A stretch of DNA of 64,000 nucleotides from a virus. Positions 1,212-58,181 of this stretch are shown in pieces. Each line of letters begins with the position of its first letter. Position 1 is the stretch's first letter. The position numbers were made by a program, and so were the translations under genes. The notes beneath the pieces were generated by a model. It saw nothing but the letters and a program-made list of their open reading frames with translations, was not told where the DNA came from and did no database searches. Location: the IMG/VR virus record IMGVR_UViG_3300025009_000896, positions 1 through 64,000 of that record. One strand, given 5' to 3'.

Positions 1212-3527
1212 ATGAAAAATATACTAACCACGCTTTTACTATGTATTTCCCTTGTTGTTGGGGCTGCCACCCGATATGTGGCCACAACGGGAAGTGACGC
1301 AGCGGCAGGAACAATAGATGCACCGTGGGCAACGTGGCAATATGGGTTCAGTCACATAGTGGCAGGTGATACGTTATATATCAGAGGTGGCACCTATCAA
1401 CCCACAGGCACATCGGCAGGAACACCGTTCAGTACCGAGTATTGGGGTGGAGTGGCAATTAGGAACACTGACGGCACGGCCTTGAATAGAATTGTGGTAA
1501 TGAACTATCCGAGTGAAAAGCCCATACTTGATGGAACAAACATAACGGCGGCACAAGGCTCCATTGGTAGCAGATTTGGAATCATAATGCGCAACTGTGA
1601 GTATTGGCACATTAAGGGACTTGAGGTAACGGGGGTGTTGCAATTCCCAACTGAGCTTGGCGTTGGGGGAATAAGGCTCATGGAGGACTGTAACCATAAT
1701 ATTCTTGAACAGATAGTATCTCACGATAACGGGGGTTCTGGAATTACGTTAGTTTATGACTGTACCGATAATCTTATCTTAAATTGTGACAGCTATAATA
1801 ACATAGACCCATATTCAACCCCTACCGCATATAATAATAGCGACGGCATAGAAATAGCCGAGATAGCAGTGGGCATGACAAATACCGTTAGGGGCTGTAG
1901 GATGTGGGGAAACTGTGATGACGGTATGGACTTGTTTGATAACGAGGGCATTGTGGTCATTGATAGTTGTTGGGCATTTTATAATAGTAAGCCCGCAGGC
2001 CCATACGACGCCAACGGCTTTAAGTTGGGAAGAACCAACAATACACATGGAACCGTACGAAGGGTTATTACTAACTCGATAGCGGTAGGCAATCAGGCTG
2101 ATGGGTTTACCACCGGGGGTGATGCTTATTGTGATATGGATATGTTTAACAATACAGCAATAGCTAATAAGTATGGGTTTATGTTTTATTTAACAACCCC
2201 TGCCGACTGTGGTACCATTACAGTTAGAAATAACATAGGATATAATAATGTTGACAACTTCAGGCATAAGTATGCCCCGATGGTTGTTGACCACAATAGT
2301 TACGATAGCGACTTTCAGACCGATGGGCCCGGGATATCTGCTGCCGACTTTGTTACCGTAGATACTCTTGGATTAAGATACTCAAGAAAGTCCGGTGGAT
2401 ACCTGCCGGACATTTCCTTCGCAACATTGGATGCTACATCCGACATGATAAATGCTGGAGTAGACGTGGGGATAGCCTACGACAGTGATGCACCCGACCT
2501 TGGCTATATAGAATATGTGTCAGAGGCACCGCCTGCATCTCCCCTTGTTTCAACAACCACGCCATATAATGTAAGCATAAGAAATGGCACAGGAGGGGGA
2601 ACTGTCACCTATGACGGAGGGGGAAGTATAACAGACAGGGGGATTTGTTGGAGTACTTCTGCTGATCCCGAAACAACCGATAATAGCATAAGTAGTGGGA
2701 CGGGATTGGGATCGTTTACCGCAGCCATAACCGGATTAGCAGCCAATACCACGTATCACATAAGAGCCTTTGCTACCAATGAAGTGGCAACATCTTATGG
2801 TGCAGATGTGGAGTTTACAACGCCTGTATCTGCAAGCTACCGATCAGTTGGAGGTAAGATTTTGTTTATCGGACATAAAGTTTCGAGTAATGTGGCGAGG
2901 ATACCCGTTTTTCCACAGATACTTACGGGTACAACGGATGGATATGTTACCAATGTGGGAAGCGTAGCCGTTACAATGCCCACGGGGGTTGCGGCAGGGG
3001 ACTTGATACTGGTCTTTATTGGCAACAGATATGGCTCAGTATTAGCAGTCAACACGGGGGTGAGTGGAAACAACTGGAATATAGAACATCAGACCGTTGC
3101 AACGGACAATCCTACGGCTGCTATAATATGGAAGATAGCCGAGGCATCTAACGCACTAACGCTTACTATTACCCCAAACGGAAACTGCAACTATGTAGCA
3201 TATAGAATATCAGATTTTAACGCCGCAGACCCACTAACCGTTACGGCAGGAGAGATAACCGTAGCGACCAATTTTGACCCTCCGGCTAATCAGGGCGCAT
3301 ACGGAACCCTTAAATATCTATGGATGGGCTGTGCCTATTCTGCTAACGCCTCAGCAACAGTAGCCCCCACTGACTTTGGTGATCTATACGTCAATGACTA
3401 TAATGGTGACAGTCAAAGTGTGGCATGGAGGGAGTACGAATATGGTAGCAGTTATGATCCGGGGGCGTTTACGTCACCCGGGGGAACGTACATTGCTCTC
3501 ACCTGTATAATTAACCCTATCGAATGA
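1212..3527 (+). CDS. Right-handed beta-helix (PL9 pectate-lyase-like) protein with signal peptide and FN3-like domain; depolymerase/receptor-binding candidate
   Basis: MKNILTTLLLCISLVVGA|ATRYVATTGSD..GT..PWAT, GDTLYIRGGTY, N.DDG.D, NGFKLG, APDLGY motifs; RGICWST...YHIRAFATN FN3-like repeat. Confidence 0.75.
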   Translation: MKNILTTLLLCISLVVGAATRYVATTGSDAAAGTIDAPWATWQYGFSHIVAGDTLYIRGGTYQPTGTSAGTPFSTEYWGGVAIRNTDGTALNRIVVMNYPSEKPILDGTNITAAQGSIGSRFGIIMRNCEYWHIKGLEVTGVLQFPTELGVGGIRLMEDCNHNILEQIVSHDNGGSGITLVYDCTDNLILNCDSYNNIDPYSTPTAYNNSDGIEIAEIAVGMTNTVRGCRMWGNCDDGMDLFDNEGIVVIDSCWAFYNSKPAGPYDANGFKLGRTNNTHGTVRRVITNSIAVGNQADGFTTGGDAYCDMDMFNNTAIANKYGFMFYLTTPADCGTITVRNNIGYNNVDNFRHKYAPMVVDHNSYDSDFQTDGPGISAADFVTVDTLGLRYSRKSGGYLPDISFATLDATSDMINAGVDVGIAYDSDAPDLGYIEYVSEAPPASPLVSTTTPYNVSIRNGTGGGTVTYDGGGSITDRGICWSTSADPETTDNSISSGTGLGSFTAAITGLAANTTYHIRAFATNEVATSYGADVEFTTPVSASYRSVGGKILFIGHKVSSNVARIPVFPQILTGTTDGYVTNVGSVAVTMPTGVAAGDLILVFIGNRYGSVLAVNTGVSGNNWNIEHQTVATDNPTAAIIWKIAEASNALTLTITPNGNCNYVAYRISDFNAADPLTVTAGEITVATNFDPPANQGAYGTLKYLWMGCAYSANASATVAPTDFGDLYVNDYNGDSQSVAWREYEYGSSYDPGAFTSPGGTYIALTCIINPIE

Positions 3528-48726: not shown

Positions 48727-49533
48727 ATGGAAAGAGTTAGTGGTATTTACAGAATTTGCTCAAAAGTTCACCCCGACAGGTTTTATTATGGCAGTGCCGT
48801 GTGTTTCTCTGAAAGATGGAGGCTTCATCTATTAAAACTCAGGAAGTATAAACATGAAAATGCCAAACTTCAAAATCACTACAACAAGTATGGCTCAGAT
48901 GATTTATTTTTTGAGGTGGTTGTAGAGTGTGACGTTGATTCCTTGCTTGCAATAGAAAATACTTATCTTAACCCCCTCCCGTTTTTCAATATATGTCCAA
49001 CGGCGGGGAGCAGTTTGGGTGTTAAGCGTACTGATGAGTATAAGGATAAGATGCGAAGGTCTAAAAAGAATCCCTCCCAAGAGCTAAGGGATAAAATAGG
49101 GATGTCCCTAAGGGGGAACATACCGTGGAATAAGGGTAAAAAATTATCAGAAGAGCATGTTAGGAAACTGAGCGAGTCTCATATGGGATACGTGCCCACG
49201 GATGAGCATCGTAAAAATCTCAGCAAGGCGAATATGGGGCGAAAAATGACTGATGAACAGCGGGAGCGGGTGAGATTGCGGATGATTGGAAACACAAACG
49301 CGGCGGGGCGGATTATATCTGACGAGACCCGAGAAAAACTGAGTAAAGCCCTTCGTGGGAAAAAGAGATCAGAGGCCGAGGCTAATAGACTAAGAACAAT
49401 AGGGATAGGTCGGCACCCAAACGAAGAAACGAGAAGAAAAATAAGTGAAGCGTCAAAGGAGATGTGGCGAAGGCGTAGGGAGGCGAAACTGTTAATGTTA
49501 GAGGAATCCCAAAACCATAGTTCTGAGGATTAA
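48727..49533 (+). CDS. GIY-YIG homing endonuclease with NUMOD3 repeats
   Basis: SGIYRI...YYGSA...RW..H...LQN.YNKYG...FNI...AGS.LG; repeated SEE.R.K.S. Confidence 0.9.
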   Translation: MERVSGIYRICSKVHPDRFYYGSAVCFSERWRLHLLKLRKYKHENAKLQNHYNKYGSDDLFFEVVVECDVDSLLAIENTYLNPLPFFNICPTAGSSLGVKRTDEYKDKMRRSKKNPSQELRDKIGMSLRGNIPWNKGKKLSEEHVRKLSESHMGYVPTDEHRKNLSKANMGRKMTDEQRERVRLRMIGNTNAAGRIISDETREKLSKALRGKKRSEAEANRLRTIGIGRHPNEETRRKISEASKEMWRRRREAKLLMLEESQNHSSED

Positions 49534-50159: not shown

Positions 50160-50846
50160 ATGCAATTAAAGGATATAGATGTTTCAAGACTATCATTCGA
50201 CATATTTGATAGCGACTTCACAACGACTATAAAAGAAAAGATACCTGAGTTCAACGAATACGAAGGAGTGATACCTGAGTTAGACGTATTCAGGTTTGTT
50301 GTTATAATGTGGGATATGAAGTCTCCTATGTTACGTGAGGTTGATGACTATTATGCACGTATGTATGCTACCGCATCAATGGTGGGGTTCCCAAGGACTA
50401 AAAACAACTTCAGCAAGGAGGCAGACGAGATAATCATAGGTAAGAATGAGAGCGTGAACAGGATGATAGTAGCCTATACTGCGTACATGGGCGTACCCGA
50501 GTATCAGTACCTAATGGCTTATCAGGCGCTGTTCGCAAGTGAATACGCTAAAGTTTTGAGGGGCAAGGGCGGCAAGGACAGCGACAAGATATTAGAGAAC
50601 GCAAGCGGGAAGGTCACTAAGTTCACGAGGGCTATCTTCGGGTCGGGAGACTACGATGAGTACTCTTTGAGGAGACAGGCGTTGTATCAGAAGATTGAGA
50701 AAGACAAATTAAGATTAAGACCCGAGCAGATCATCAGGGACTTAACGGATAACGGAGATTTGCCTGAAGACTTTAACCCCTACGGTGACTACTCTATCGA
50801 TATAAATAAGGATATTAAGTTCGTTGGTGATGGCAAAGAAGGTTGA
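50160..50846 (+). CDS. Hypothetical protein; terminase small subunit candidate
   Basis: Helical 228-aa ORF overlapping the TerL start. Confidence 0.45.
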   Translation: MQLKDIDVSRLSFDIFDSDFTTTIKEKIPEFNEYEGVIPELDVFRFVVIMWDMKSPMLREVDDYYARMYATASMVGFPRTKNNFSKEADEIIIGKNESVNRMIVAYTAYMGVPEYQYLMAYQALFASEYAKVLRGKGGKDSDKILENASGKVTKFTRAIFGSGDYDEYSLRRQALYQKIEKDKLRLRPEQIIRDLTDNGDLPEDFNPYGDYSIDINKDIKFVGDGKEG

Positions 50847-53166
50847 TTACACCGAACTTTACGTTCCGGCTGACACTGTTTTTGCAATTAATAACCTCGA
50901 TCCAGATCGAAAGACTATCGTTTTGTCTCTGCCCAAACCACCGAACGTAAACACTATTGATAATTTTGGCCTACACCCTGACGAACAGTATTTCAAACGG
51001 TGGAAGACACCTAAGAAGCTATTAACTATTGAAAAAGAGGTCTTAAGAGAACTTCAGGATATTCAAAAGGGCAACAGACAGGAGACTGTAACGGGGTATA
51101 AAATAATTGACAAGTTCTGGGATAAGGTAGAAGAAGAAAGGGACGACTTAGAGGCAGAGATAGACTTCATTAAGAAGCTGTGGTGGCATAGGATGAACGG
51201 CTATTGGTTCTACAACGACGGCAAACCAACGTACATAACCGGAAGGCACTTCATGTTCCTGAACTTCTTTTATCAACCCGATATAACTACTAACGACGGG
51301 TACCCTGAGTACAGAGACAGACACCGGAGGGAGTTTCTATTCAGAGAGTATCTGAGGCACGCTACCGAGACGTTTGCCAAGAGAGATGAAAGAGGGTGGG
51401 CTGTGCCTAATGCTGATGGTAGTTATGATATGATTGATGTGGGGTCGAGAGTAAGCTATGGAGACATACATCCTAAGTCCCGAAGGAACGGTTCTACAAT
51501 GATGGCATTGTGTGATATGATTGAAAGTTCGGAAAGGAGTTTTGGTATCTACTCTACTATAATTTCAAAAGACGGTGAGGCCACCGAGGAGCACTACAAC
51601 CTTAAGCTACTTCCTTCGTGGGTAATGAGGCCGTATTTTCTTAAACCCGTGTGGCAGGGATCGTCCCAACCAACGCAGATAAAATATTTTCCTCCTAAAA
51701 ACTACTACGGCAACGAAGCCCTGATGAGTGTCATTGACTACACCGTATCGGCCTCGGAGACTAAAAAAGATGGGTCTAAGTTTAATGGAGAACTCGTATG
51801 CGATGAGGAGGGCAAGGTTTCTGGATTAGGAGTCAACGTCTTACAGAGGTGGGACGTAAATAAGAACGCACTTGCCCTTGGTGACGGTACTAAGATATTA
51901 GGATACTCTACTCACATCTCAACGGTAGAAGACATCAATGCTGCGGGTATGGCCTTCTTGGATATGCTTGAACTCTCTGACTTTTATCAAAGGGGAGAGA
52001 GTGGGCAGACTACATCAGGTCTTATGGCTCACCTGTATCCTTCTTATGACGGTCAGGAAAACTTCATAGATCGGTATGGTATGTCAGTCATTGACACCCC
52101 CACAGACCGACAGTGCCGCTTATCTCATTCAGCAATCTTCGCTACGCTTAAAAAGGGAGCCAAGCAATATCAACAGGAAAAGAGAGATGACTTCTTAAAG
52201 AAGGGCACCCCTGCTGCTATGCAGTCTTATAGGGCTTATGTTAAGAAGTACCCGTGGAAGACAAGCGAACTCTATATGTCAACAGTCTCAGACATGGGCT
52301 TTGACTATGAGATACTTGACACCCGAATCATGGAGTTGAGGAAGATGAAGTCCTTGGGTAAGATGCCATATAAGGTCGGGAACTTCTACCGTGAGGGAGA
52401 CCCGTTAGAGGGTAGGGTATATTGGAAGACAGAACCCGAAGGGAAGTTTGAGTTATCCATGGAACTTAAGCCTGAAGAAGCAAATCTTAAACGTAAAACT
52501 TTGGTTTGGGATGGCACTAAGATGTCTATGGTGCCAGCTTGGGAGCCTGTTTATAAAACGAGGTTTACCGCAGGGGCTGATCCATTTCGTTTCAGGAACA
52601 GCAAAGACATCACCACTAATAAGCAATCTGATGGCGGAATAGCAGTATTATGGCACGATTTTTCTAAGCCCAATAAGTCAGAGAATAGGAAGTTTGTATT
52701 GTCATATAGGTATAGACCTCATACATTAGAAGAATACTGTGAGGACTGCATAAAAGTGTGTGAGTATTTTGGGGCTATGTGTTATCCCGAAAACAACCTC
52801 ACAGGAGTATATGAGCACTTCATTAAGAGGATGAGGGGCGGATATCTTAAGTACGATCAAGACTCGATCACGGGTCGAGCAAAGGATACCCCCGGATATT
52901 ACGCATCTCCGGGAACAATAAACGACGGGATGTCCCAAATTAAAGATTACATAGTCTTCAATGGAGCAGAAGAAAATCACTTAAGTTTTTTGGAAGAGGT
53001 GCGTGGCATGAGAAGTGTAGATGATTTAACTAATAACGATAGGTTTGCAGCGCACATGGCCAGCTTACTCGGCGCCCTCAGCAGCTACGGCAAGGCATCG
53101 GATTTTATGAATACTCAAACAATAGACCTCGGGAAAGTCTCTTGGTTACAAAAAAGATCATTTTAA
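50830..53166 (+). CDS. terL: Terminase large subunit (crAss-like type)
   Basis: GYWFYN.G.PTYITG.H, K.RR.GST Walker A, CDEEGK Walker B, GADP and ENN...ND nuclease motifs. Confidence 0.9.
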   Translation: MAKKVDYTELYVPADTVFAINNLDPDRKTIVLSLPKPPNVNTIDNFGLHPDEQYFKRWKTPKKLLTIEKEVLRELQDIQKGNRQETVTGYKIIDKFWDKVEEERDDLEAEIDFIKKLWWHRMNGYWFYNDGKPTYITGRHFMFLNFFYQPDITTNDGYPEYRDRHRREFLFREYLRHATETFAKRDERGWAVPNADGSYDMIDVGSRVSYGDIHPKSRRNGSTMMALCDMIESSERSFGIYSTIISKDGEATEEHYNLKLLPSWVMRPYFLKPVWQGSSQPTQIKYFPPKNYYGNEALMSVIDYTVSASETKKDGSKFNGELVCDEEGKVSGLGVNVLQRWDVNKNALALGDGTKILGYSTHISTVEDINAAGMAFLDMLELSDFYQRGESGQTTSGLMAHLYPSYDGQENFIDRYGMSVIDTPTDRQCRLSHSAIFATLKKGAKQYQQEKRDDFLKKGTPAAMQSYRAYVKKYPWKTSELYMSTVSDMGFDYEILDTRIMELRKMKSLGKMPYKVGNFYREGDPLEGRVYWKTEPEGKFELSMELKPEEANLKRKTLVWDGTKMSMVPAWEPVYKTRFTAGADPFRFRNSKDITTNKQSDGGIAVLWHDFSKPNKSENRKFVLSYRYRPHTLEEYCEDCIKVCEYFGAMCYPENNLTGVYEHFIKRMRGGYLKYDQDSITGRAKDTPGYYASPGTINDGMSQIKDYIVFNGAEENHLSFLEEVRGMRSVDDLTNNDRFAAHMASLLGALSSYGKASDFMNTQTIDLGKVSWLQKRSF

Positions 53167-53177
53167 TTTTTTATTAT

Positions 53178-53185
53178 TATCTTTG
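53178..53185 (+). promoter_or_regulatory. Bacteroidetes -7 promoter box of tRNA operon 1
   Basis: TATCTTTG. Confidence 0.8.
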
Positions 53186-53189
53186 TGAC

Positions 53190-53240
53190 ATGAGAATGAA
53201 TCAACATATAGAGCAGCCGATAAACTTACTTGGTGGGTGA
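53190..53240 (+). CDS. Attenuator leader peptide 1, MRMNQHIEQPINLLGG
   Basis: Near-leaderless ORF; CAA CAT ATA GAG CAG CCG ATA match the downstream Gln/His/Ile-UAU/Glu/Pro tRNAs. Confidence 0.8.
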   Translation: MRMNQHIEQPINLLGG

Positions 53241-53261
53241 GGTAACTCTATATTGTATATA

Positions 53262-53291
53262 GCCCTCCCCACAAGGAGGGTTTTTTGTTTT
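53262..53291 (+). terminator. Attenuator terminator 1
   Basis: GCCCTCC-CCACAA-GGAGGGT followed by Ts; competing strand GTGGGTGAGG at 53233-53242. Confidence 0.85.
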
Positions 53292-53292
53292 A

Positions 53293-53377
53293 CGGAGTGT
53301 AGGTCTGTAGCTGGTAGCAGTCCTGCCTTGGAAGCAGGTGGAGCAATCCCTCGTCGGTTCGATCCCGGCCACTCCGA
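53293..53377 (+). tRNA. tRNA-Pro(TGG) with an unusual long variable arm
   Basis: CGGAGTG/CACTCCG; CCTGC-CTTGGAA-GCAGG; GTCGG-TTCGATC-CCGGC. Confidence 0.85.
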
Positions 53378-53382
53378 CTTAT

Positions 53383-53453
53383 TGAGGCTTCGTTTAACGG
53401 TAGGACGCACGGCTTATACCCATGTAATCAGAGTCCAATTCTCTGAGCCTCAA
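53383..53453 (+). tRNA. tRNA-Ile(TAT)
   Basis: TGAGGCT/AGCCTCA; loop CTTATAC; resembles the Ile(GAT) gene at 53871. Confidence 0.8.
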
Positions 53454-53455
53454 CT

Positions 53456-53529
53456 GTGTCAGATGCTCGTATGGACAGAGTGACGGATTGTGACTCCGTT
53501 AGAAGCCAGTTCAAATCTGGTCTGACACC
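53456..53529 (+). tRNA. tRNA-His(GTG)
   Basis: GTGTCAG/CTGACAC, C73; ACGGA-TTGTGAC-TCCGT. Confidence 0.85.
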
Positions 53530-53533
53530 CTAT

Positions 53534-53604
53534 GTTCGGTTCGTCTATCGGTAGGACGGCGGGTTTTCATCCCGTAAAGGCGAGTTCGATTCTCGCACCG
53601 AATA
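53534..53604 (+). tRNA. tRNA-Glu(TTC)
   Basis: GTTCGGT/ACCGAAT; GCGGG-TTTTCAT-CCCGT. Confidence 0.9.
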
Positions 53605-53609
53605 CATAT

Positions 53610-53680
53610 TGCCCTGTCGTATAGAGGTGGTACACATGGCTTTGAACCATGCGGAGAAGGGTCAGTACCTTCCGGGGCAT
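53610..53680 (+). tRNA. tRNA-Gln(TTG)
   Basis: TGCCCTG/CGGGGCA; CATGG-CTTTGAA-CCATG; atypical T-loop GTCAGTA. Confidence 0.8.
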
Positions 53681-53689
53681 CAAAATAAA

Positions 53690-53720
53690 TTTGCATATTA
53701 AATTAAAAGTATTATCTTTG
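53690..53720 (+). promoter_or_regulatory. Bacteroidetes -33/-7 promoter of tRNA operon 2
   Basis: TTTG...TATCTTTG. Confidence 0.85.
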
Positions 53721-53739
53721 CAGTAATTAAGGCATAAGG

Positions 53740-53814
53740 ATGCAAATGGTAAGAAAAAATATGGTGAATATTGACCGCACAGGCGCAACCGTGCGAAAGG
53801 GTATCCCCATATAG
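53740..53814 (+). CDS. Attenuator leader peptide 2, MQMVRKNMVNIDRTGATVRKGIPI
   Basis: 22 of 24 residues are M/V/R/K/N/I/D/T/G/A, the amino acids of the 11 downstream tRNAs. Confidence 0.8.
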   Translation: MQMVRKNMVNIDRTGATVRKGIPI

Positions 53815-53839
53815 TTCTTTGAAAGGATTATTAAGGCGG

Positions 53840-53870
53840 ATGCCCTCACAAAATGGGGGCATTTTTATTT
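53840..53870 (+). terminator. Attenuator terminator 2
   Basis: ATGCCCTCA-CAAAA-TGGGGGCAT followed by Ts; competing AGGGTATCC at 53798-53806 pairs with GGATGCCCT. Confidence 0.85.
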
Positions 53871-53941
53871 TGGCTTATAGTTTAATGGTAGAACGCCTCG
53901 CTGATACCGAGGTAATTCAAGTCCGATTCTTGGTGAGCCAA
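53871..53941 (+). tRNA. tRNA-Ile(GAT)
   Basis: TGGCTTA/TGAGCCA; CCTCG-CTGATAC-CGAGG. Confidence 0.85.
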
Positions 53942-53947
53942 CAACAT

Positions 53948-54018
53948 TGTGGGGTAGAGTAACGGTAACTCGTGGGGCCCATAACCCCAAGCTGAGGGTT
54001 CAACTCCCCCTCCCGCAA
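53948..54018 (+). tRNA. tRNA-Met(CAT), initiator-like
   Basis: TGGGG-CCCATAA-CCCCA with consecutive G-C pairs in the anticodon stem. Confidence 0.8.
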
Positions 54019-54024
54019 CTAATT

Positions 54025-54098
54025 GGGAATGTAGCTCGTATGGAAGTAGCTACGGCCTGTTAAGCCGAAGGTAGAAGGTTCGAGTCCTTCCGTTCCCG
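54025..54098 (+). tRNA. tRNA-Asn(GTT)
   Basis: GGGAATG/CGTTCCC, G73; CGGC-CTGTTAA-GCCG. Confidence 0.85.
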
Positions 54099-54102
54099 CA
54101 AT

Positions 54103-54174
54103 GCTCTTATGGTGTAATGAACAGCACAGGGGTCTTCTAATCCCTTAGTTTGGGTTTGATTCCTAATAGGAGCA
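54103..54174 (+). tRNA. tRNA-Arg(TCT)
   Basis: GCTCTTA/TAGGAGC; loop CTTCTAA. Confidence 0.8.
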
Positions 54175-54179
54175 CAAAT

Positions 54180-54254
54180 GCCTTCGTCGGCCCCTTGGTG
54201 GGGAACCAGACTGTCACTCTGGTAAAACAGACGGATCGTAACCGTTCGGGGGCG
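54180..54254 (+). tRNA. tRNA-Asp(GTC)
   Basis: GCCTTCG/CGGGGGC, G73; CCAGA-CTGTCAC-TCTGG; atypical T-loop ATCGTAA. Confidence 0.75.
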
Positions 54255-54257
54255 CAA

Positions 54258-54332
54258 GGGCTGTTCGTATAGTGGCTATTACTTCTGTTTTGCAAGCAGG
54301 AAACGAGATTTCGATTATCTCACAGTCCACCA
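54258..54332 (+). tRNA. tRNA-Ala(TGC)
   Basis: G3:U70 identity pair; loop TTTGCAA; encoded CCA. Confidence 0.85.
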
Positions 54333-54334
54333 AT

Positions 54335-54406
54335 GCGGGATAGGTGTTGACACATACACAGGAGTCTTCCAAACTTCAGTAGACGGAGGGTTACCGTCAT
54401 CCCGCT
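54335..54406 (+). tRNA. tRNA-Gly(TCC)
   Basis: GCGGGAT/ATCCCGC, U73; loop CTTCCAA; atypical D-loop and T-loop. Confidence 0.75.
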
Positions 54407-54410
54407 CTAA

Positions 54411-54481
54411 GTGATCGTAGCAAATCGGTTATGCCCCGCCCTTTTAAGGCGGTGAGATTGGTTCGACTCCAATCGGTCACA
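54411..54481 (+). tRNA. tRNA-Lys(TTT)
   Basis: GTGATCG/CGGTCAC; CCGCC-CTTTTAA-GGCGG. Confidence 0.85.
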
Positions 54482-54486
54482 CAAAT

Positions 54487-54559
54487 GCGCTCATAGCATA
54501 ATGGAAAGTGTGCAAGGCTACGAACCTTGGCGGTTGGAGTTCGACTCTTCATGGGCGTA
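54487..54559 (+). tRNA. tRNA-Arg(ACG)
   Basis: GCGCTCA/TGGGCGT; CAAGG-CTACGAA-CCTTG. Confidence 0.9.
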
Positions 54560-54564
54560 CTAAT

Positions 54565-54636
54565 GCTCCATAAGCATTGATGGCGATGCGCTAGTCTTGT
54601 AAACTTGAAAGCAGGGTTCGATTCCTTGATGGAGCT
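54565..54636 (+). tRNA. tRNA-Thr(TGT)
   Basis: GCTCCAT/ATGGAGC; loop CTTGTAA. Confidence 0.85.
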
Positions 54637-54692
54637 CAGGTGGAATTTACAAACTATTTGGAGGTTACAAATCTTTTGTATATCTTTGTGTT

Positions 54693-55112
54693 ATGGAAAA
54701 GAAAAAAGAATGTCCTAAATGTGGAATTAAAAAAACAATAGATTATTTTACTAAGTCTAAATCGCGCAAGGATGGGTTTGGGTCTTTTTGCCTAGAGTGT
54801 GGAAGAAAATACGGGCGGCTTCATTATAAAAATAATAAAGCTGAATATATTAAAAGAATATCCTCTAACAAAGAAAGGGTTCGTGATCTTTATATAACTC
54901 TTAAAAAGTCATATGTATGCAGTAAGTGCGGGGACAATAGATGGTATGTGTTAGATTTTCATCACGAAGGAAATAAGGAATCTGACATAGCCCATATGGC
55001 ATCGGAGGGATATTCAATAGATTCCATTAAAAAAGAGATAGAAAAATGTATAGTGTTATGTTCTAATTGCCACAGAGAATTACATTACAAACAAAATGGG
55101 GGCATAGTTTAA
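54693..55112 (+). CDS. HNH endonuclease inserted in the tRNA array
   Basis: CxxC...CxxC, C.KCG...LDFHH...EIEKC.VLCSNCHRE.H; own TATCTTTG at 54681-54688. Confidence 0.85.
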   Translation: MEKKKECPKCGIKKTIDYFTKSKSRKDGFGSFCLECGRKYGRLHYKNNKAEYIKRISSNKERVRDLYITLKKSYVCSKCGDNRWYVLDFHHEGNKESDIAHMASEGYSIDSIKKEIEKCIVLCSNCHRELHYKQNGGIV

Positions 55113-55167
55113 TTGGCAAAACGTTTGTGTTACATACAAGTCATGACGTTCGAGTCGTCTGCCCCTA
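55098..55167 (+). tRNA. tRNA-Val(TAC)
   Basis: GGGGGCA/TGCCCCT; TTTGT-GTTACAT-ACAAG; 4-bp T-stem. Confidence 0.7.
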
Positions 55168-55175
55168 CTAATATT

Positions 55176-55199
55176 GTTCGATTCCAGTAGAGACTACAA
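55176..55199 (+). pseudogene. tRNA 3'-half remnant
   Basis: GTTCGATTCCAG-TAGAGACTA-CAA with no 5' half. Confidence 0.45.
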
Positions 55200-55204
55200 G
55201 TTTA

Positions 55205-55236
55205 TTTGCATATATTAAAAACAATGATTACCTTTG
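55205..55236 (+). promoter_or_regulatory. Bacteroidetes -33/-7 promoter of tRNA operon 3
   Basis: TTTG...TACCTTTG. Confidence 0.85.
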
Positions 55237-55243
55237 CCTTGAA

Positions 55244-55303
55244 ATGAGAAATTGTTGGTCATATAGTTCGTTTTTACTCTTGCTCTCAAAGCGAGGTAGA
55301 TGA
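55244..55303 (+). CDS. Attenuator leader peptide 3, MRNCWSYSSFLLLLSKRGR
   Basis: TCA TAT AGT TCG TTT TTA CTC TTG CTC TCA match the downstream Ser/Tyr/Leu tRNAs. Confidence 0.8.
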   Translation: MRNCWSYSSFLLLLSKRGR

Positions 55304-55325
55304 CCTATATATCCATATAGCATAG

Positions 55326-55356
55326 ACCTCGCCCATAAAGCGGGGTTTTTTATTTT
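55326..55356 (+). terminator. Attenuator terminator 3
   Basis: ACCTCGC-CCATAAA-GCGGGGT followed by Ts; competing GCGAGGT at 55291-55297. Confidence 0.85.
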
Positions 55357-55432
55357 GCTCCGGTAGCCCAATTGGTAGAATGGCAACGGGTTTAAGCCCC
55401 GTTCAGTGTCGGTTCGAATCCGACTCGGAGTA
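55357..55432 (+). tRNA. tRNA-Leu(TAA), short variable loop
   Basis: GCTCCGG/TCGGAGT; ACGGG-TTTAAGC-CCCGT. Confidence 0.85.
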
Positions 55433-55437
55433 CAAAT

Positions 55438-55513
55438 GCCGCAGTAGCAGAATTGGCACGTGCGTTAGTCTTAGAAACTAATAGTTATGTGAGTTCGAAT
55501 CTCACCTGCGGTA
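55438..55513 (+). tRNA. tRNA-Leu(TAG), short variable loop
   Basis: GCCGCAG/CTGCGGT; TTAGT-CTTAGAA-ACTAA. Confidence 0.85.
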
Positions 55514-55517
55514 CTAA

Positions 55518-55609
55518 GGATGGGTGAACCCCAGTTGGCCTAAGGGGGACGGTCTTGAAAACCGTAGGTCGCTCAAAACGGCGTGGGGGTTCGAGTCCCT
55601 CCCCATCCG
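55518..55609 (+). tRNA. tRNA-Ser(TGA)
   Basis: GGATGGG/CCCATCC, G73; ACGGT-CTTGAAA-ACCGT; long variable arm. Confidence 0.85.
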
Positions 55610-55615
55610 CAATAT

Positions 55616-55684
55616 GGGAGTAATTCTTTGGAGAAGACGGGTCTGTAACACCCCAAATAGAAAGTTCGATGCTTCCTACTCCCA
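55616..55684 (+). tRNA. tRNA-Tyr(GTA), minimal (short D-loop, no long arm)
   Basis: GGGAGTA/TACTCCC; GGGT-CTGTAAC-ACCC. Confidence 0.7.
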
Positions 55685-55689
55685 CTAAT

Positions 55690-55774
55690 GGAGGGCTGCT
55701 GTAATGGTATCAGAGCGGTTCGCTAAACCGTCCGTCAGCAATGGCGTGGCAGGGTTCGACTCCCCCGTCCTCCG
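55690..55774 (+). tRNA. tRNA-Ser(GCT)
   Basis: GGAGGGC/GTCCTCC, G73; loop TCGCTAA; long variable arm. Confidence 0.8.
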
Positions 55775-55823
55775 CACTGATTTCTCACATTCACTATCTT
55801 TGTGGATATAAAAATATCCGCAA

Positions 55824-58181
55824 GTGATTAGACTCGAAAAGTATATCGGCGGGATAAGCCCAAGTAGAGACATAGCCCCCGAGAAAAAGACAGAAGTATA
55901 TTGTAGAAAAAATGCCGAGTTTCTGTATGGTCTTTGGTGCGGATCGGCCACAGCTTGGGGCTATGACTCCCTCTCGTTTTTTAATGAGATGCGGCAGTAT
56001 AGCAATGGGGCTCAGGATACAAATCAATATAAAAGTTTTTTAACCAACTCGGGGGCAAATAACTCTGAGACTTTTAGTCTGTATGATAATGATGCAGGCA
56101 TAACGCAACGAGCAAAACGCGACGGATATTATAACCTGCTATGGCAGAATCTTTCTCCTGCGCCGAAGATTCTCAATGCATTACACGGGGCTTTGGGTTC
56201 TTATGATTACGATCTTTACTGCGATACCATAGATGCCAATTCGAGGGGATTGGTAGAGTTTGAAAAGTTTAAGAAGTTTCACGAGGCTCGTGATATAAAG
56301 TGGCAAACGGAATATAAAACTAAGGCAGGTATCCCCGTCGACGAAGACGCTAACTTTCCTAAGACACTTGAGGAATTAGAAGCCTTCTCCGCAAGGGAAG
56401 GGTTTAAACTGAATATAGCCCGTGCTATGCAGAAGGTGCTAAGGCATGGGTTTAATGTCAGCGATTGGGACGGGTCTATCAGGAAGAAGCTGTTAGACGA
56501 CCTTATTACTTTAGGCTACTGCGCCGCAGAAGACTTGTATGACGACGAAGATAGGCTGTTTAAAACACAATGGCTTGACCCCGCAAGGACTGTGATGCAA
56601 TTTTCCCACGAGAAAGATTATTCGGATGCAGAATATGGTGGGCACTTCTCAGAGTGGACAATCTCTAATGTAAGGCGTAAAAGACCTGATCTTACTGAAG
56701 ATGAGTTGTATGCTTTGGCTAAAAACAATAAGGGCAATTTTAACAACCCAACAATACAGTGGGGGGAGAGAACGAGTATGCTTGACATAACAAGTAACTC
56801 TTACCTTTATGATGACTTCAAGGTAGCAGTGTTTAAGGCTTATTGGATAGATACCGACACTTACAAGAGCCTCTACTATAACAACAACTCCGGTCGGGAG
56901 ATGGTCAAAGAGGTGGGGTATGATGAGAAGATAACCCCCTTAACCAAAAACCAAATAGCTAAAGGCAAAAAGCAAGAGGTAAAACAGACTAAAATCAGGG
57001 TTGTTTATCAGTGTTCATGGGTAGTGGGGTCTGAGATATGTTGGGATCATGGTAAGCTATTGATGGGTGCAAGGCCGCAGCCGTCTAAGCCTAAGATACC
57101 TATCCACGTTGAGCAGTTGCTACAACCTTCTATTGTCTACAGGCTTAAGCCTATCTTAGACTCAATAGCCTTGACGTGGCTACAGCATCAGAACTCTATG
57201 GCTAAGATGATAGAGAAGGGCTATGCCGTGAATATGAGCATGTTGATGAATGTAACGATGAATGGGAAGGATGCATTAGACCCTGCTGGTGTTTTAAATA
57301 TGTGGAAGCAGACGGGGATTCTACCTTATATGTATGGTGGGGCTAATGGGCAATACCCGGGTGGGGCCGCTATTCCCGTCACTCCTATTGACGGAGGATT
57401 AGGGAATAGAATACAGGAGACCGCTATGGCCTTAGAGACTAACTTCAAGCTAATTGAGGAGATAGTGGGGATAAACCCTGTTGCAATGGGGTCTACTCCT
57501 ACTAAAGACTCACAGGTAGGTACTACCGAGATGGCGATGCAGGCCACATCCAACGTGCTTAAACCTATAGTAGAGGGTATGTTCGAGATCAAGCAGAGTC
57601 TTGGTTCAAGTTTAATGTTAAGAACACAGATAGGTCTTAGGGTAGATAAAGACATAAGAGATGCCTATGCAGGTATTATCTCTCCTTCTGATATTAAGTC
57701 GTTGGTTTTGGCAGAACACAATAGTGTTCAGTATGGCATTAGCCTTAAGGCCAAGCCTGATGATAAACGTAAAGCTACGCTGCTTAACTTCATTACTCTT
57801 GAAGTAGAGAAGGGCACATTGGGTTCACCGGAAGGAATGTACTTTGCCGAAAGATTAGAATCGGGTGCAGACATGATAGAACTCCGTCAGGAGATAGCCT
57901 ATGCAATAGAAAAAGGACAGCAGCGTAAGATGCAAGAGTCGTTGGCTACTATCCAAGAGCAGAATAAGGGTATGCTTGAAAACGAACAGCTTAAGGGGCA
58001 GAACGAACAGGCTAAGATCAATGCCGAGGGACAGGTGAAGATGGCTGAAGAAGCCCTAAGAGGGGATATAAAGCATAAGTTACAGAGACAACAGAATAAT
58101 GCAGAATTAATGAGCAGACTCTTTGATGATGTGGCTGCTGAAAAAGAAATAAAGAATGACAACACCAGAAGACAGGCTTAA
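55824..58181 (+). CDS. Portal protein
   Basis: 785 aa, between TerL and scaffold/MCP; R.YS.G.QD..QYK, I.EIVGIN....GSTP, Gln-rich helical C-terminus; promoter at ~55796. Confidence 0.8.
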   Translation: MIRLEKYIGGISPSRDIAPEKKTEVYCRKNAEFLYGLWCGSATAWGYDSLSFFNEMRQYSNGAQDTNQYKSFLTNSGANNSETFSLYDNDAGITQRAKRDGYYNLLWQNLSPAPKILNALHGALGSYDYDLYCDTIDANSRGLVEFEKFKKFHEARDIKWQTEYKTKAGIPVDEDANFPKTLEELEAFSAREGFKLNIARAMQKVLRHGFNVSDWDGSIRKKLLDDLITLGYCAAEDLYDDEDRLFKTQWLDPARTVMQFSHEKDYSDAEYGGHFSEWTISNVRRKRPDLTEDELYALAKNNKGNFNNPTIQWGERTSMLDITSNSYLYDDFKVAVFKAYWIDTDTYKSLYYNNNSGREMVKEVGYDEKITPLTKNQIAKGKKQEVKQTKIRVVYQCSWVVGSEICWDHGKLLMGARPQPSKPKIPIHVEQLLQPSIVYRLKPILDSIALTWLQHQNSMAKMIEKGYAVNMSMLMNVTMNGKDALDPAGVLNMWKQTGILPYMYGGANGQYPGGAAIPVTPIDGGLGNRIQETAMALETNFKLIEEIVGINPVAMGSTPTKDSQVGTTEMAMQATSNVLKPIVEGMFEIKQSLGSSLMLRTQIGLRVDKDIRDAYAGIISPSDIKSLVLAEHNSVQYGISLKAKPDDKRKATLLNFITLEVEKGTLGSPEGMYFAERLESGADMIELRQEIAYAIEKGQQRKMQESLATIQEQNKGMLENEQLKGQNEQAKINAEGQVKMAEEALRGDIKHKLQRQQNNAELMSRLFDDVAAEKEIKNDNTRRQA

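What the first reader, a model, noticed from the sequence alone, without database searches (positions are those of the whole stretch)
53178..53680. Attenuator 1: QHIEQPI leader matches Pro/Ile(UAU)/His/Glu/Gln tRNAs codon for codon
Leader 53190-53240 contains seven consecutive codons, CAA CAT ATA GAG CAG CCG ATA, covering all five downstream tRNAs and nothing else. Both Ile codons are ATA, matching the rare tRNA-Ile(TAT) in this unit. Pairings: 1:2 ATATAGAG/CTCTATAT; 2:3 GTGGGTGAGG (53233-42) with CCTCCCCAC (53264-72); 3:4 terminator 53262-53281. The ATG lies 5 nt after the -7 box, so the transcript is probably leaderless.
Basis: partly seen in the sequence, partly recalled or inferred. Interest (0 to 1): 0.85.

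Follow-up and report, generated by a model that had tools for sequence, protein, structure and literature searches.

The report
Codon-matched attenuator gating phage tRNA genes
A tiny gene written in the codons read by the five tRNA genes behind it, and wired to a transcription stop signal, probably lets this phage make those tRNAs only when ribosomes run short of them, a control so far described only for amino-acid genes.

Summary
At 53178-53292 a Bacteroidota-type -7 box is followed after 4 nt by a 16-codon ORF. An intrinsic terminator then ends 10 nt before tRNA-Pro, the first of five tRNA genes (Pro, Ile-UAU, His, Glu, Gln).

- **Codon match:** Seven consecutive leader codons are read by exactly these five tRNAs. 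Simulated chance is 5e-5 per ORF, and no other short-ORF locus in the window has such a run.
- **Recurrence:** The window has two more units of the same design. So do 10 related environmental phage contigs. Contig L135 and the cultured Flavobacteriia phages Gundel_1, Calle_1 and phi38:1 have it with different tRNA groupings.
- **Covariation:** Leader composition follows tRNA content each time. In each of six phages, 0 of 100,000 relabellings reach the observed match.
- **Coding signal:** The core codons vary only synonymously.
- **Predicted switch:** Folding with a ribosome mask removes the terminator only while the ribosome sits in the matched run (0.93 to 0.04 to 0.93).

Most likely this is a trp-type leader-peptide attenuator that transcribes a tRNA block when decoding of its codons is slow. 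Nothing is experimental, and the predicted switch fails in some relatives. Seven literature searches found no published account. This scan has noted the same design before on other phage DNA.

The parts
53178..53185 (+). Promoter -7 box (Bacteroidota type, TAnnTTTG; the consensus is recalled, not from a call)
   Evidence: Position. A box of this form lies 4-5 nt before the ATG in 7 of 7 unit-1 homologues and 4 nt before both Gundel_1 leaders. No -33 TTTG is seen in the window's unit 1.
53190..53240 (+). Leader ORF 1, 16 codons plus TGA
   Evidence: It is conserved as an ORF in L011, L027, L039, L130, L135 and L136.
53202..53222 (+). Run of seven codons read only by the five downstream tRNAs (regulatory codons)
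   Evidence: run of 7, P = 5e-5; the four variable sites in the six-codon core are all third positions and all synonymous; the predicted terminator probability falls to 0.04-0.38 when the A site is in codons 5-9.
53204..53213 (+). Segment 1 (5' strand of the 1:2 stem), inside the His-Ile-Glu codons
   Evidence: Minimum-energy fold. The helix is 83% paired over 7 sequences. In L135 a change in the Glu codon is matched by a change in the partner strand.
53223..53242 (+). Antiterminator 5' strand: last five codons plus the stop codon. In free RNA it folds as a small hairpin.
   Evidence: with the ribosome masked in the run, it pairs with 53264-53282; it forms a hairpin in the free fold.
53246..53253 (+). 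Segment 2 (3' strand of the 1:2 stem)
53261..53282 (+). Intrinsic terminator hairpin (3:4), 8 pairs
   Evidence: In alignment A2, 4 of the 7 stem pairs change on both sides.
53283..53292 (+). U tract; tRNA-Pro starts at the next base
53293..53680 (+). Regulated block: tRNA-Pro(TGG), Ile(TAT), His(GTG), Glu(TTC), Gln(TTG), 1-4 nt apart
53740..53864 (+). Unit 2 of the same design: leader ORF 53740-53814 and terminator 53838-53864. It precedes Ile(GAT), Met, Asn, Arg(TCT), Asp, Ala, Gly, Lys, Arg(ACG), Thr, then an inserted HNH gene, then Val.
   Evidence: (run of 20 own codons, P = 1.7e-5, 11 of 11 anticodons covered).
55244..55348 (+). Unit 3 of the same design: leader ORF 55244-55303 and terminator 55324-55348. 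It precedes Leu(TAA), Leu(TAG), Ser(TGA), Tyr, Ser(GCT).
   Evidence: There is a weak Rfam Trp_leader hit of 27.7 bits, below the 41-bit threshold.

Best explanation
Unit 1 is a ribosome-mediated (leader-peptide) transcription attenuator that controls a block of five phage tRNA genes.

Transcription starts at or next to the ATG, so the mRNA is leaderless or nearly so, and a ribosome translates the 16-codon leader.

- **Fast decoding.** If codons 5-11, read by Gln, His, Ile(AUA), Glu and Pro tRNAs, are decoded quickly, the ribosome reaches the stop codon. There it covers 53223-53242. The terminator (53261-53282) forms and transcription ends in the U tract, just before tRNA-Pro.
- **Slow decoding.** If any of these codons is decoded slowly because its tRNA is scarce, the ribosome pauses in the run. 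That breaks the 1:2 stem and leaves 53223-53242 free to pair with the terminator's 5' arm. RNA polymerase then reads into the tRNA genes.
- **No ribosome.** The 1:2 stem forms and the terminator wins.

The result is negative feedback on decoding capacity: the phage makes this tRNA set when, and only as long as, its codons are read slowly. Units 2 and 3 do the same for the other two tRNA blocks.

Shown by sequence and computation: the anatomy, the conservation, the covariation of leader and tRNA set, and the predicted alternative folds. Inferred: the transcription start, translation, the direction of the switch, and its physiological trigger.
For: 1. **Codon match beyond chance in the window.** The own-codon runs are 7, 20 and 5 codons in the three leaders. 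Their simulated probabilities are 5e-5, 1.7e-5 and 3.4e-3, and every anticodon of each block is covered.
2. **Conservation as a coding sequence.** The leader-1 core is identical at the amino-acid level in 7 of 7 sequences whose terminases are only 41-62% identical (where a terminase lies on the contig). All four variable sites are synonymous third positions.
3. **Covariation of leader and tRNA set.**
   - In L135, tRNA-Trp sits in block 2. Leader 2 there has a Trp codon and leader 3 has none. In L011, L027, L039 and L130, Trp sits in block 3 and in leader 3. The L135 Trp gene is a homologue of the L039 one with compensated stems.
   - In Calle_1 the three blocks group the amino acids differently. 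Each leader holds a run of 11, 16 or 14 codons drawn only from its own block's set.
   - In Gundel_1 the runs are 10 and 6 codons.
   - In each of six phages, 0 of 100,000 random relabellings of the amino acids reach the observed match. In 16 of 17 leaders every amino acid of the own set is present.
4. **Geometry.** The stop codon lies 18-29 nt before the terminator in 23 of 23 units. The first tRNA follows the U tract directly. No promoter-like box lies between terminator and tRNA.
5. **Predicted switch.**
   - Window unit 1: P(terminator) is 0.93 for free RNA, 0.04-0.38 with the A site in codons 5-9, and 0.93 at the stop.
   - Of 120 dinucleotide shuffles, 0-2 reach this contrast, depending on the measure.
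   - A minimum below 0.3 is seen in 17 of 23 units of the window's family.
6. **Structures are conserved.** In unit 1, 77.7% of cells are paired, against 38-60% when partners are slid. Seven pairs change on both sides, a count that 13 of 500 shuffles reach. Units 2 and 3 are covered.
Against: - There is no experimental datum of any kind. No RNA run holds the locus.
- There is no Shine-Dalgarno sequence. The leaderless start is inferred from box-to-ATG spacing and a recalled promoter model.
- The equilibrium fold does not predict a switch for unit 1 of L039 and L135. It is weak for L011 and L027 (minimum 0.58-0.60). It predicts none for unit 2 of L135.
- Among the cultured phages the equilibrium switch is clear in only 1 of 5 units, with a one-codon dip in a second.
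- The kinetic proxy that works in 28 of 28 units has a high baseline. The shuffle mean is 0.54, and 23 of 336 shuffles reach the observed value.
- Each regulatory codon occurs once or twice, not in tandem runs, so sensitivity is uncertain.
- Eight of the 15 leader-1 codons after the start are not own-block codons.
- The invariant His-Ile-Glu codons also form the 1:2 stem, so their invariance cannot be assigned to decoding alone.
- The match is not obligatory. The window's leader 3 keeps Cys, Trp and Phe codons although the 83-kb record has no such tRNA. In L136/L138 an intact leader 1 precedes only Pro, a doubtful Trp call, Phe and Cys.
- More tRNA does not help if the amino acid itself is lacking.
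Confidence: 0.8

Rival explanations
1. The leaders are translated and do sense decoding of the block's codons, but the output is not transcription termination. A paused ribosome would instead change processing or stability of the tRNA precursor, for example RNase access to the hairpin next to the first tRNA.
For: The codon and tRNA covariation requires translation but not termination. The equilibrium switch is not predicted in 6 of 23 family units, nor in 3-4 of 5 units of cultured phages.
Against: Every unit has a GC-rich hairpin followed at once by a U tract, which is the form of an intrinsic terminator. The segment around the stop codon is complementary to the terminator's 5' arm, with compensated changes in units 2 and 3. 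The stop-to-hairpin distance is held at 18-29 nt.
Confidence: 0.08
2. The logic is reversed: a ribosome paused in the run favours termination, so the phage shuts its tRNA genes off when translation is failing.
For: The direction of the switch rests on thermodynamic prediction only.
Against: In 17 of 23 units the predicted terminator probability falls, rather than rises, when the ribosome is in the run. It is high when the ribosome is at the stop codon. The strand complementary to the terminator arm overlaps the stop codon, so a terminating ribosome would cover it.
Confidence: 0.04
3. Unit 1 is a chance short ORF in front of an ordinary terminator or a structural spacer. The tRNAs would be transcribed by read-through from upstream genes or from an unrecognised promoter.
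For: The promoter scan for sigma-70 sites finds nothing special here. The window's unit 1 lacks a -33 TTTG. Bacteroides phage DAC19 has tRNAs without any such unit.
Against: Simulated chance is 5e-5 for unit 1 alone. The ORF is kept with only synonymous changes in the core. In each of six phages, 0 of 100,000 relabellings reach the observed match. The Trp codon and the Trp tRNA move together in L135.
Confidence: 0.02

Closest known systems
Leader-peptide transcription attenuators of amino-acid operons (trpL, hisL, pheL, leuL; multivalent thrL and ilvL). Names and properties are recalled; pheL is also in PMC3082878, search listing and start of abstract only.
   Same: Both have a short ORF on the same transcript. 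Both have regulatory codons for the amino acids concerned. Both have a 1:2 stem, a 2:3 antiterminator overlapping the end of the ORF, a 3:4 intrinsic terminator, and termination when the ribosome reaches the stop codon.
   Different: Here the regulated genes are tRNA genes, not biosynthetic enzymes. The leader samples 5 to 11 different amino acids once or twice each, instead of tandem runs of one to three. The unit is phage-encoded, sits behind a Bacteroidota-type promoter and is probably leaderless. The signal that helps is the amount of tRNA, not the supply of amino acid. No Rfam leader family matches unit 1. Unit 3 matches Trp_leader only below threshold.
T-box riboswitches (properties recalled)
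   Same: Both use a tRNA-related signal to decide between a terminator and an antiterminator in a 5' leader.
   Different: A T-box binds uncharged tRNA directly, has no ORF, and controls synthetase and amino-acid genes. No T-box match was found in 52000-57000 at E up to 1. Here the codons are read by a ribosome.
The silent long tRNA array (trn operon) of Anabaena PCC 7120. Sources: PMC8421152, passages seen; PMC10272220, abstract and outline seen.
   Same: Both are accessory tRNA gene arrays that are kept off and induced when translation is impaired.
   Different: The Anabaena array is controlled at the promoter by direct repeats bound by the repressor TrcR. The words attenuat-, leader peptide and terminator do not occur in the main text of PMC8421152. 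The array is cellular and plasmid-borne, not phage-borne.

Membership tests
Ribosome-mediated (leader-peptide) transcription attenuators | A short ORF lies between the promoter and the regulated genes on the same strand | tested here: met
   ORF 53190-53240, 4 nt after the -7 box. It is conserved in 7 of 7 unit-1 homologues.
Ribosome-mediated (leader-peptide) transcription attenuators | The leader ORF is translated | not testable with these tools
   Indirect support only: synonymous-only variation in the core, and leader composition that follows the tRNA set.
Ribosome-mediated (leader-peptide) transcription attenuators | Regulatory codons correspond to the regulated function | tested here: met
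   A run of 7 codons is read by exactly the 5 downstream tRNAs, P = 5e-5. In each of six phages, 0 of 100,000 relabellings reach the match.
Ribosome-mediated (leader-peptide) transcription attenuators | An intrinsic terminator lies between the leader and the regulated genes | tested here: met
   53261-53282 plus the U tract. The stem is kept by changes on both sides in 4 of 7 pairs. Termination itself was not tested.
Ribosome-mediated (leader-peptide) transcription attenuators | An antiterminator excludes the terminator and is exposed only when the ribosome pauses in the regulatory codons | tested here: met
   Window: 0.93, then 0.04, then 0.93; the pairing is 53223-53242 with 53264-53282; 0-2 of 120 shuffles reach this. 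Across relatives the result is inconclusive: 17 of 23 units, with unit 1 clear in 3 of 7, and 1 of 5 clear in cultured phages.
Ribosome-mediated (leader-peptide) transcription attenuators | A 1:2 pairing sequesters the antiterminator in untranslated RNA | tested here: met
   The stem 53204-53213 with 53246-53256 is in the free fold, and P(terminator) for free RNA is 0.93. The helix is 83% paired in 7 sequences.
Ribosome-mediated (leader-peptide) transcription attenuators | Regulated genes encode amino-acid biosynthesis or related enzymes (true of all described members, from recall) | tested here: not met
   The regulated genes are five tRNA genes. This is the respect in which it is a new variant.
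Rfam leader families (Trp_leader, His_leader and others) | A match at or above the family's gathering score | tested here: not met
   Unit 1 gives only a chance-level match to an unrelated sRNA model (E = 0.63). Unit 3 scores 27.7 bits against Trp_leader, whose threshold is 41.
T-box riboswitch | A match to the T-box model (specifier loop and T-box sequence) | tested here: not met
   No T-box match in 52000-57000 at E up to 1.

The most novel reading that the evidence does not exclude
These units are a phage-borne surveillance circuit for the host's tRNA pool. Each leader is an OR gate over 5 to 11 codon types. Loss of any one host tRNA would then switch on the whole replacement block within one round of leader translation, and the block would shut off again once decoding recovers. 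Such loss could come from anticodon nucleases or other tRNA-targeting defences, from phage-induced host shut-off, or from the phage's own skewed codon demand (ATA is 51% of its Ile codons). That would make attenuation a general counter-defence and dosage device of tRNA-carrying phages. It would also make the leaders a direct sequence read-out of which tRNAs a phage expects to lose.
Probability: 0.3. Interest if true: 0.92.

Novelty: new variant of a known kind. Interest (0 to 1): 0.85.

Why it matters
**A new use of a textbook mechanism.** Leader-peptide attenuation has always been tied to amino-acid supply. Here the same device appears to regulate tRNA genes themselves. One short peptide polls many codon types at once.

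**It bears on how phages use their tRNA genes.** It would explain how phages with large tRNA sets avoid making them constitutively. It also gives a mechanistic handle on why phages carry tRNAs at all, whether to meet codon demand or to replace tRNAs destroyed by host defence.

**It is directly testable.** The same design is present in cultured phages with cultured hosts: phi38:1 and Calle_1 on Cellulophaga, and Gundel_1 on Tenacibaculum. phi38:1 already has infection transcriptomes (PMC5335546, passages seen).

**It affects annotation.** Two leaders of phi38:1 are filed as hypothetical proteins, and a third is overlain by an opposite-strand gene call.

Tried and rejected
**Searches for relatives**
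- Close relatives among isolated phages by DNA: only generic tRNA hits.
- The portal protein as a query in viral contigs: no relative found.
- The terminase alone as a query: four loci, none with tRNAs.
It gave 120 matching stretches, apparently chance hits. None carried an array; only L157 had 3 or more tRNAs, and those were cellular.
- Of the viral-contig hits to the leader-1 pattern, four (L132, L133, L134, L137) lie in coding DNA without tRNAs.

**Other phages checked for the same design**
- Cellulophaga phage phi46:3, first 36 kb: no tRNA annotated. The rest of the record was not read.
- Bacteroides phage DAC19: three tRNAs with no leader-plus-terminator unit.
- A blastn search with the Gundel_1 array gave only generic tRNA hits.

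**RNA evidence**
- No RNA holder is listed for 53100-55800. The full holders are four groundwater metagenome runs that may be the source of this DNA. Read laying was not used, because contigs of DNA runs cannot show termination.

**Fold models**
- The equilibrium fold model was tried on all 23 family units and on 5 units of cultured phages. It fails for some (see the Against line).
- A kinetic proxy, with the transcript cut before the 3' arm, was added. It proved weakly discriminating.

**Literature**
- Seven searches bear on leader-peptide or attenuator control of tRNA genes. None returned such an account in the listings and abstract starts that I read.

**Not done**
- I did not test the earlier scan notes on Caulobacter and giant phages.
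Full report
**What is in the window.** The window is part of an 83-kb IMG/VR virus record. Between the terminase large subunit gene (50824-53166) and the portal gene (55824-58181) lie 21 tRNA genes in three blocks. Default ARAGORN of them. Gln, Gly and Tyr need Rfam or a relaxed ARAGORN threshold. No tRNA lies elsewhere in the record. The terminator scan places a hairpin with a T tract directly in front of each block: 53261-53282, 53838-53864 and 55324-55348. Upstream of each hairpin lies a short ATG ORF of 16, 24 or 19 codons, and upstream of that a TAnnTTTG-like box. That consensus is recalled as the Bacteroidota -7 element.

**The observation for unit 1.** It is accurate.
- The ORF runs 53190-53240.
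- Codons 5-11 (53202-53222) are read only by the five tRNAs that follow: Pro(TGG), Ile(TAT), His(GTG), Glu(TTC) and Gln(TTG). All five are covered.
- The box is 53178-53185, so 4 nt separate it from the ATG.
- With the window's own codon usage, a run of 7 or more has probability 5e-5 in an ORF of this length.
- Together with coverage of all five anticodons, the probability is 6.7e-6.
- Among 659 short ORFs in the window the next longest run is 4.
- For leaders 2 and 3 the runs are 20 and 5 codons (P = 1.7e-5 and 3.4e-3), covering 11 of 11 and 5 of 5 anticodons.

**Relatives.** A terminase alignment was used to scan metagenome and viral contigs. DNA patterns from the leaders added further loci. 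The same array with the same three-block layout and leader ORFs is present in L011, L027, L028, L039 (also held as L099 and L131), L053, L054, L029 (also L098), L130, L135 and L136 (also L138). That makes ten distinct contigs, out of 259 records scanned. The loci that showed an array in the terminase scans have terminases 41-62% identical to the window's. In L011, L027 and L039 the array lies upstream of the terminase gene, not downstream.

**The leader is kept as a coding sequence.** In the seven unit-1 sequences the six-codon core is identical at the amino-acid level. Its four variable sites are the third positions of the two Gln codons, the Glu codon and the Pro codon, where all four bases occur. 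This is the pattern of a translated sequence. The box-to-ATG spacing is 4-5 nt in 7 of 7 sequences.

**Covariation between leader and tRNA set.** This is the strongest evidence.
- **L135.** The blocks are in the order 3-2-1 and tRNA-Trp sits in block 2. Leader 2 of L135 has a Trp codon inside a run of 16 own-set codons that covers all 11 amino acids of the block. Leader 3 has no Trp codon.
  - The L135 Trp gene is called by ARAGORN only at a relaxed threshold, and not by Rfam at E up to 0.1.
  - It aligns with the Trp gene of L039 with compensated acceptor and anticodon stems.
  - I read the Tyr, Cys and Leu(TAG) anticodons of L135 block 3 by eye, on tRNA matches that Rfam confirms for Tyr and Cys.
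- **Cellulophaga phage Calle_1 (Pervagoviridae).** Its partition is quite different, and its three leaders hold runs of 11, 16 and 14 codons drawn only from their own sets. The three blocks are:
  - Ala, Lys, Ile, Gly, Met, Asp, Thr, Val, Arg, Ile(UAU);
  - Tyr, Ser, Ser, Asn, Trp, Phe, Cys;
  - Pro, Glu, Gln, His, Gln, Leu, Arg.
- **Tenacibaculum phage Gundel_1 (Pachyviridae).** It has two units, with runs of 10 and 6 codons.
- **Permutation test.** In each of six phages, 0 of 100,000 random relabellings of the 20 amino acids reach the observed sum of own-block runs. In 16 of 17 leaders every amino acid of the own set occurs.
- **phi38:1.** It holds a Calle unit at 98% identity. Two of its leaders are annotated, with N-terminal extensions, as hypothetical proteins gp066 and gp070. 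The third is unannotated.

**Exceptions.** The window's leader 3 keeps Cys, Trp and Phe codons, but the record has no such tRNA. Relatives do: L027 has all three. This suggests recent loss. In L136/L138 an intact leader 1 precedes only Pro, a doubtful overlapping Trp call, Phe and Cys. I read this as a deletion that joined the start of block 1 to the end of block 3. Bacteroides phage DAC19 has no such unit.

**RNA structure.**
- **Free fold of unit 1.** The minimum-energy fold is -30.2 kcal/mol with z = -3.12. It has a long stem between the His-Ile-Glu codons and a segment after the stop codon, a small hairpin over the end of the ORF, and the terminator.
- **Ribosome-mask model, window unit 1.** I masked the 5' part up to 13 nt past the first base of the A-site codon and computed the mean pair probability of the terminator stem. 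The values are:
  - 0.93 for free RNA;
  - 0.24, 0.13, 0.05, 0.04, 0.07 and 0.38 for A-site codons 4-9;
  - 0.67 for codons 10-11;
  - 0.88-0.93 from codon 12 to the stop.
- **The competing fold.** It pairs 53223-53242, which holds the stop codon, with 53264-53282.
- **Shuffle control.** Dinucleotide shuffles of the part upstream of the terminator reach the observed contrast in 2 of 120 cases (stop minus minimum) and 0 of 120 (also requiring a high free value). For units 2 and 3 the counts are 0 and 10, and 1 and 0, of 120.
- **The window's family.** A minimum below 0.3 in the run with a high value at the stop is seen in 17 of 23 units. By unit this is 3 of 7 for unit 1, 5 of 7 for unit 2 and 9 of 9 for unit 3. 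The failures are unit 1 of L011, L027, L039 and L135, and unit 2 of L039 and L135.
- **Cultured phages.** Only Calle unit 1 shows a sustained drop, and a second unit dips at one codon.
- **Kinetic proxy.** This is the fraction of the terminator's 5' arm paired upstream before the 3' arm exists. It is 0.53-1.00 when stalled and 0.00-0.28 at the stop in 28 of 28 units. Shuffles average 0.54 and 23 of 336 reach the observed value, so the proxy adds little.
- **Pair counts.**
  - Unit 1: 77.7% paired, against 38-60% when partners are slid. Seven pairs change on both sides, and four of those are in the terminator.
  - Unit 3: the free fold is 93.7% paired, and the antiterminator core is 100% paired with one compensated pair.
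  - Unit 2: 88.4% for the free fold and 81.0% for the antiterminator fold.
- **Geometry.** The stop-to-terminator distance is 18-29 nt in 23 of 23 units.

**Mechanism.** The anatomy is that of a trp/his-type attenuator.
- A ribosome that reaches the stop codon covers the antiterminator strand, and transcription ends before the first tRNA.
- A ribosome paused in the matched run opens the 1:2 stem, frees the antiterminator, and polymerase reads into the tRNA genes.
- Because the regulated products are the tRNAs that read the run, the circuit is a negative feedback on decoding speed.
- The near-leaderless start would load a ribosome as soon as the 5' end emerges. This is inference.
- The phage uses ATA for 51% of its Ile codons, which fits a need for the UAU tRNA.
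- What would make tRNA limiting is not addressed by any result here. Candidates are host tRNA loss through defence nucleases, host shut-off, or codon demand late in infection.

**Host and setting.** The nearest cultured phages by terminase (22-25% identity) all infect Flavobacteriia, and the promoter boxes are of the Bacteroidota type. The DNA is held by groundwater metagenome runs that may be its source.

**Comparison with what is known.**
- No Rfam leader family or T-box matches unit 1.
- Seven full-text searches for leader-peptide or attenuator control of tRNA genes returned nothing relevant in the listings and abstract starts I read.
- The papers on Gundel/Calle and on phi38:1 only count or mention tRNAs (PMC8776804 and PMC5335546, passages seen).
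It is induced by translational stress but through the promoter-bound repressor TrcR (PMC8421152 passages, PMC10272220 abstract).
- Earlier notes of this scan describe the same design on other phage DNA, including a marine Bacteroidota phage and Caulobacter phages. I did not test those.

**Verdict.** This is a new variant of a known kind of regulator, with strong comparative and no experimental evidence. Cultured model systems are at hand to test it.

Noticed in passing
window 54693-55112: An HNH endonuclease ORF (phrog_2255, E = 1.2e-32) with its own -7-like box is inserted between tRNA-Thr and tRNA-Val, and its end overlaps the start of tRNA-Val. In relatives Thr and Val are 1-5 nt apart. Similar insertions sit in the arrays of L053, L130 and Gundel_1.
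   Followed up: partly
window 48727-49533: A GIY-YIG/NUMOD3 homing endonuclease gene lies upstream of the terminase region.
   Followed up: no
relatives of window 50824-53166 (P0003, P0008, P0028, P0029, P0031, P0109): Some terminase relatives are about 1160-1190 residues long and carry intein/homing-endonuclease Pfam domains (PF05204, PF05203, PF14528). These look like intein-bearing terminases.
   Followed up: no
window 53293-53378: tRNA-Pro is 86 nt long with extra sequence after the anticodon stem. The Pro genes of relatives are about 74-76 nt. Its Rfam score is 39.5 bits, among the lower scores in the array.
   Followed up: no
window 53383-53454 and all long frames of the window: There is a tRNA-Ile with anticodon TAT, and ATA makes up 51% of Ile codons in stop-free frames of 200 or more codons.
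   Followed up: partly
window 55244-55303 versus L027 3408-3628: The window's leader 3 keeps Cys, Trp and Phe codons but the record has no such tRNA genes. L027 has all three at the end of block 3. The leader seems to outlast the loss of its tRNAs.
   Followed up: yes
L136 and L138 (minus strand), about 4500-4930 of L136: An intact leader 1 and terminator are followed only by Pro, a doubtful overlapping Trp call, Phe and Cys. This is probably a deletion across most of the array.
   Followed up: partly
L267 (Cellulophaga phage phi38:1, NC_021796) 370-477, 1831-1962, 3011-3193: The annotated hypothetical proteins gp066 and gp070 are N-terminally extended calls of two leader ORFs. gp067 is an opposite-strand call lying over the third leader, which is unannotated.
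   Followed up: yes
window 55250-55353: There is a weak Rfam match of unit 3 to the Trp_leader family: 27.7 bits against a threshold of 41, E = 0.014.
   Followed up: partly
L135 8222-8366 and 8087-8150 (minus strand): Block 2 of L135 holds a tRNA-like gene with a six-base anticodon loop, plus two 63-nt spacers that no tool calls as tRNA.
   Followed up: no
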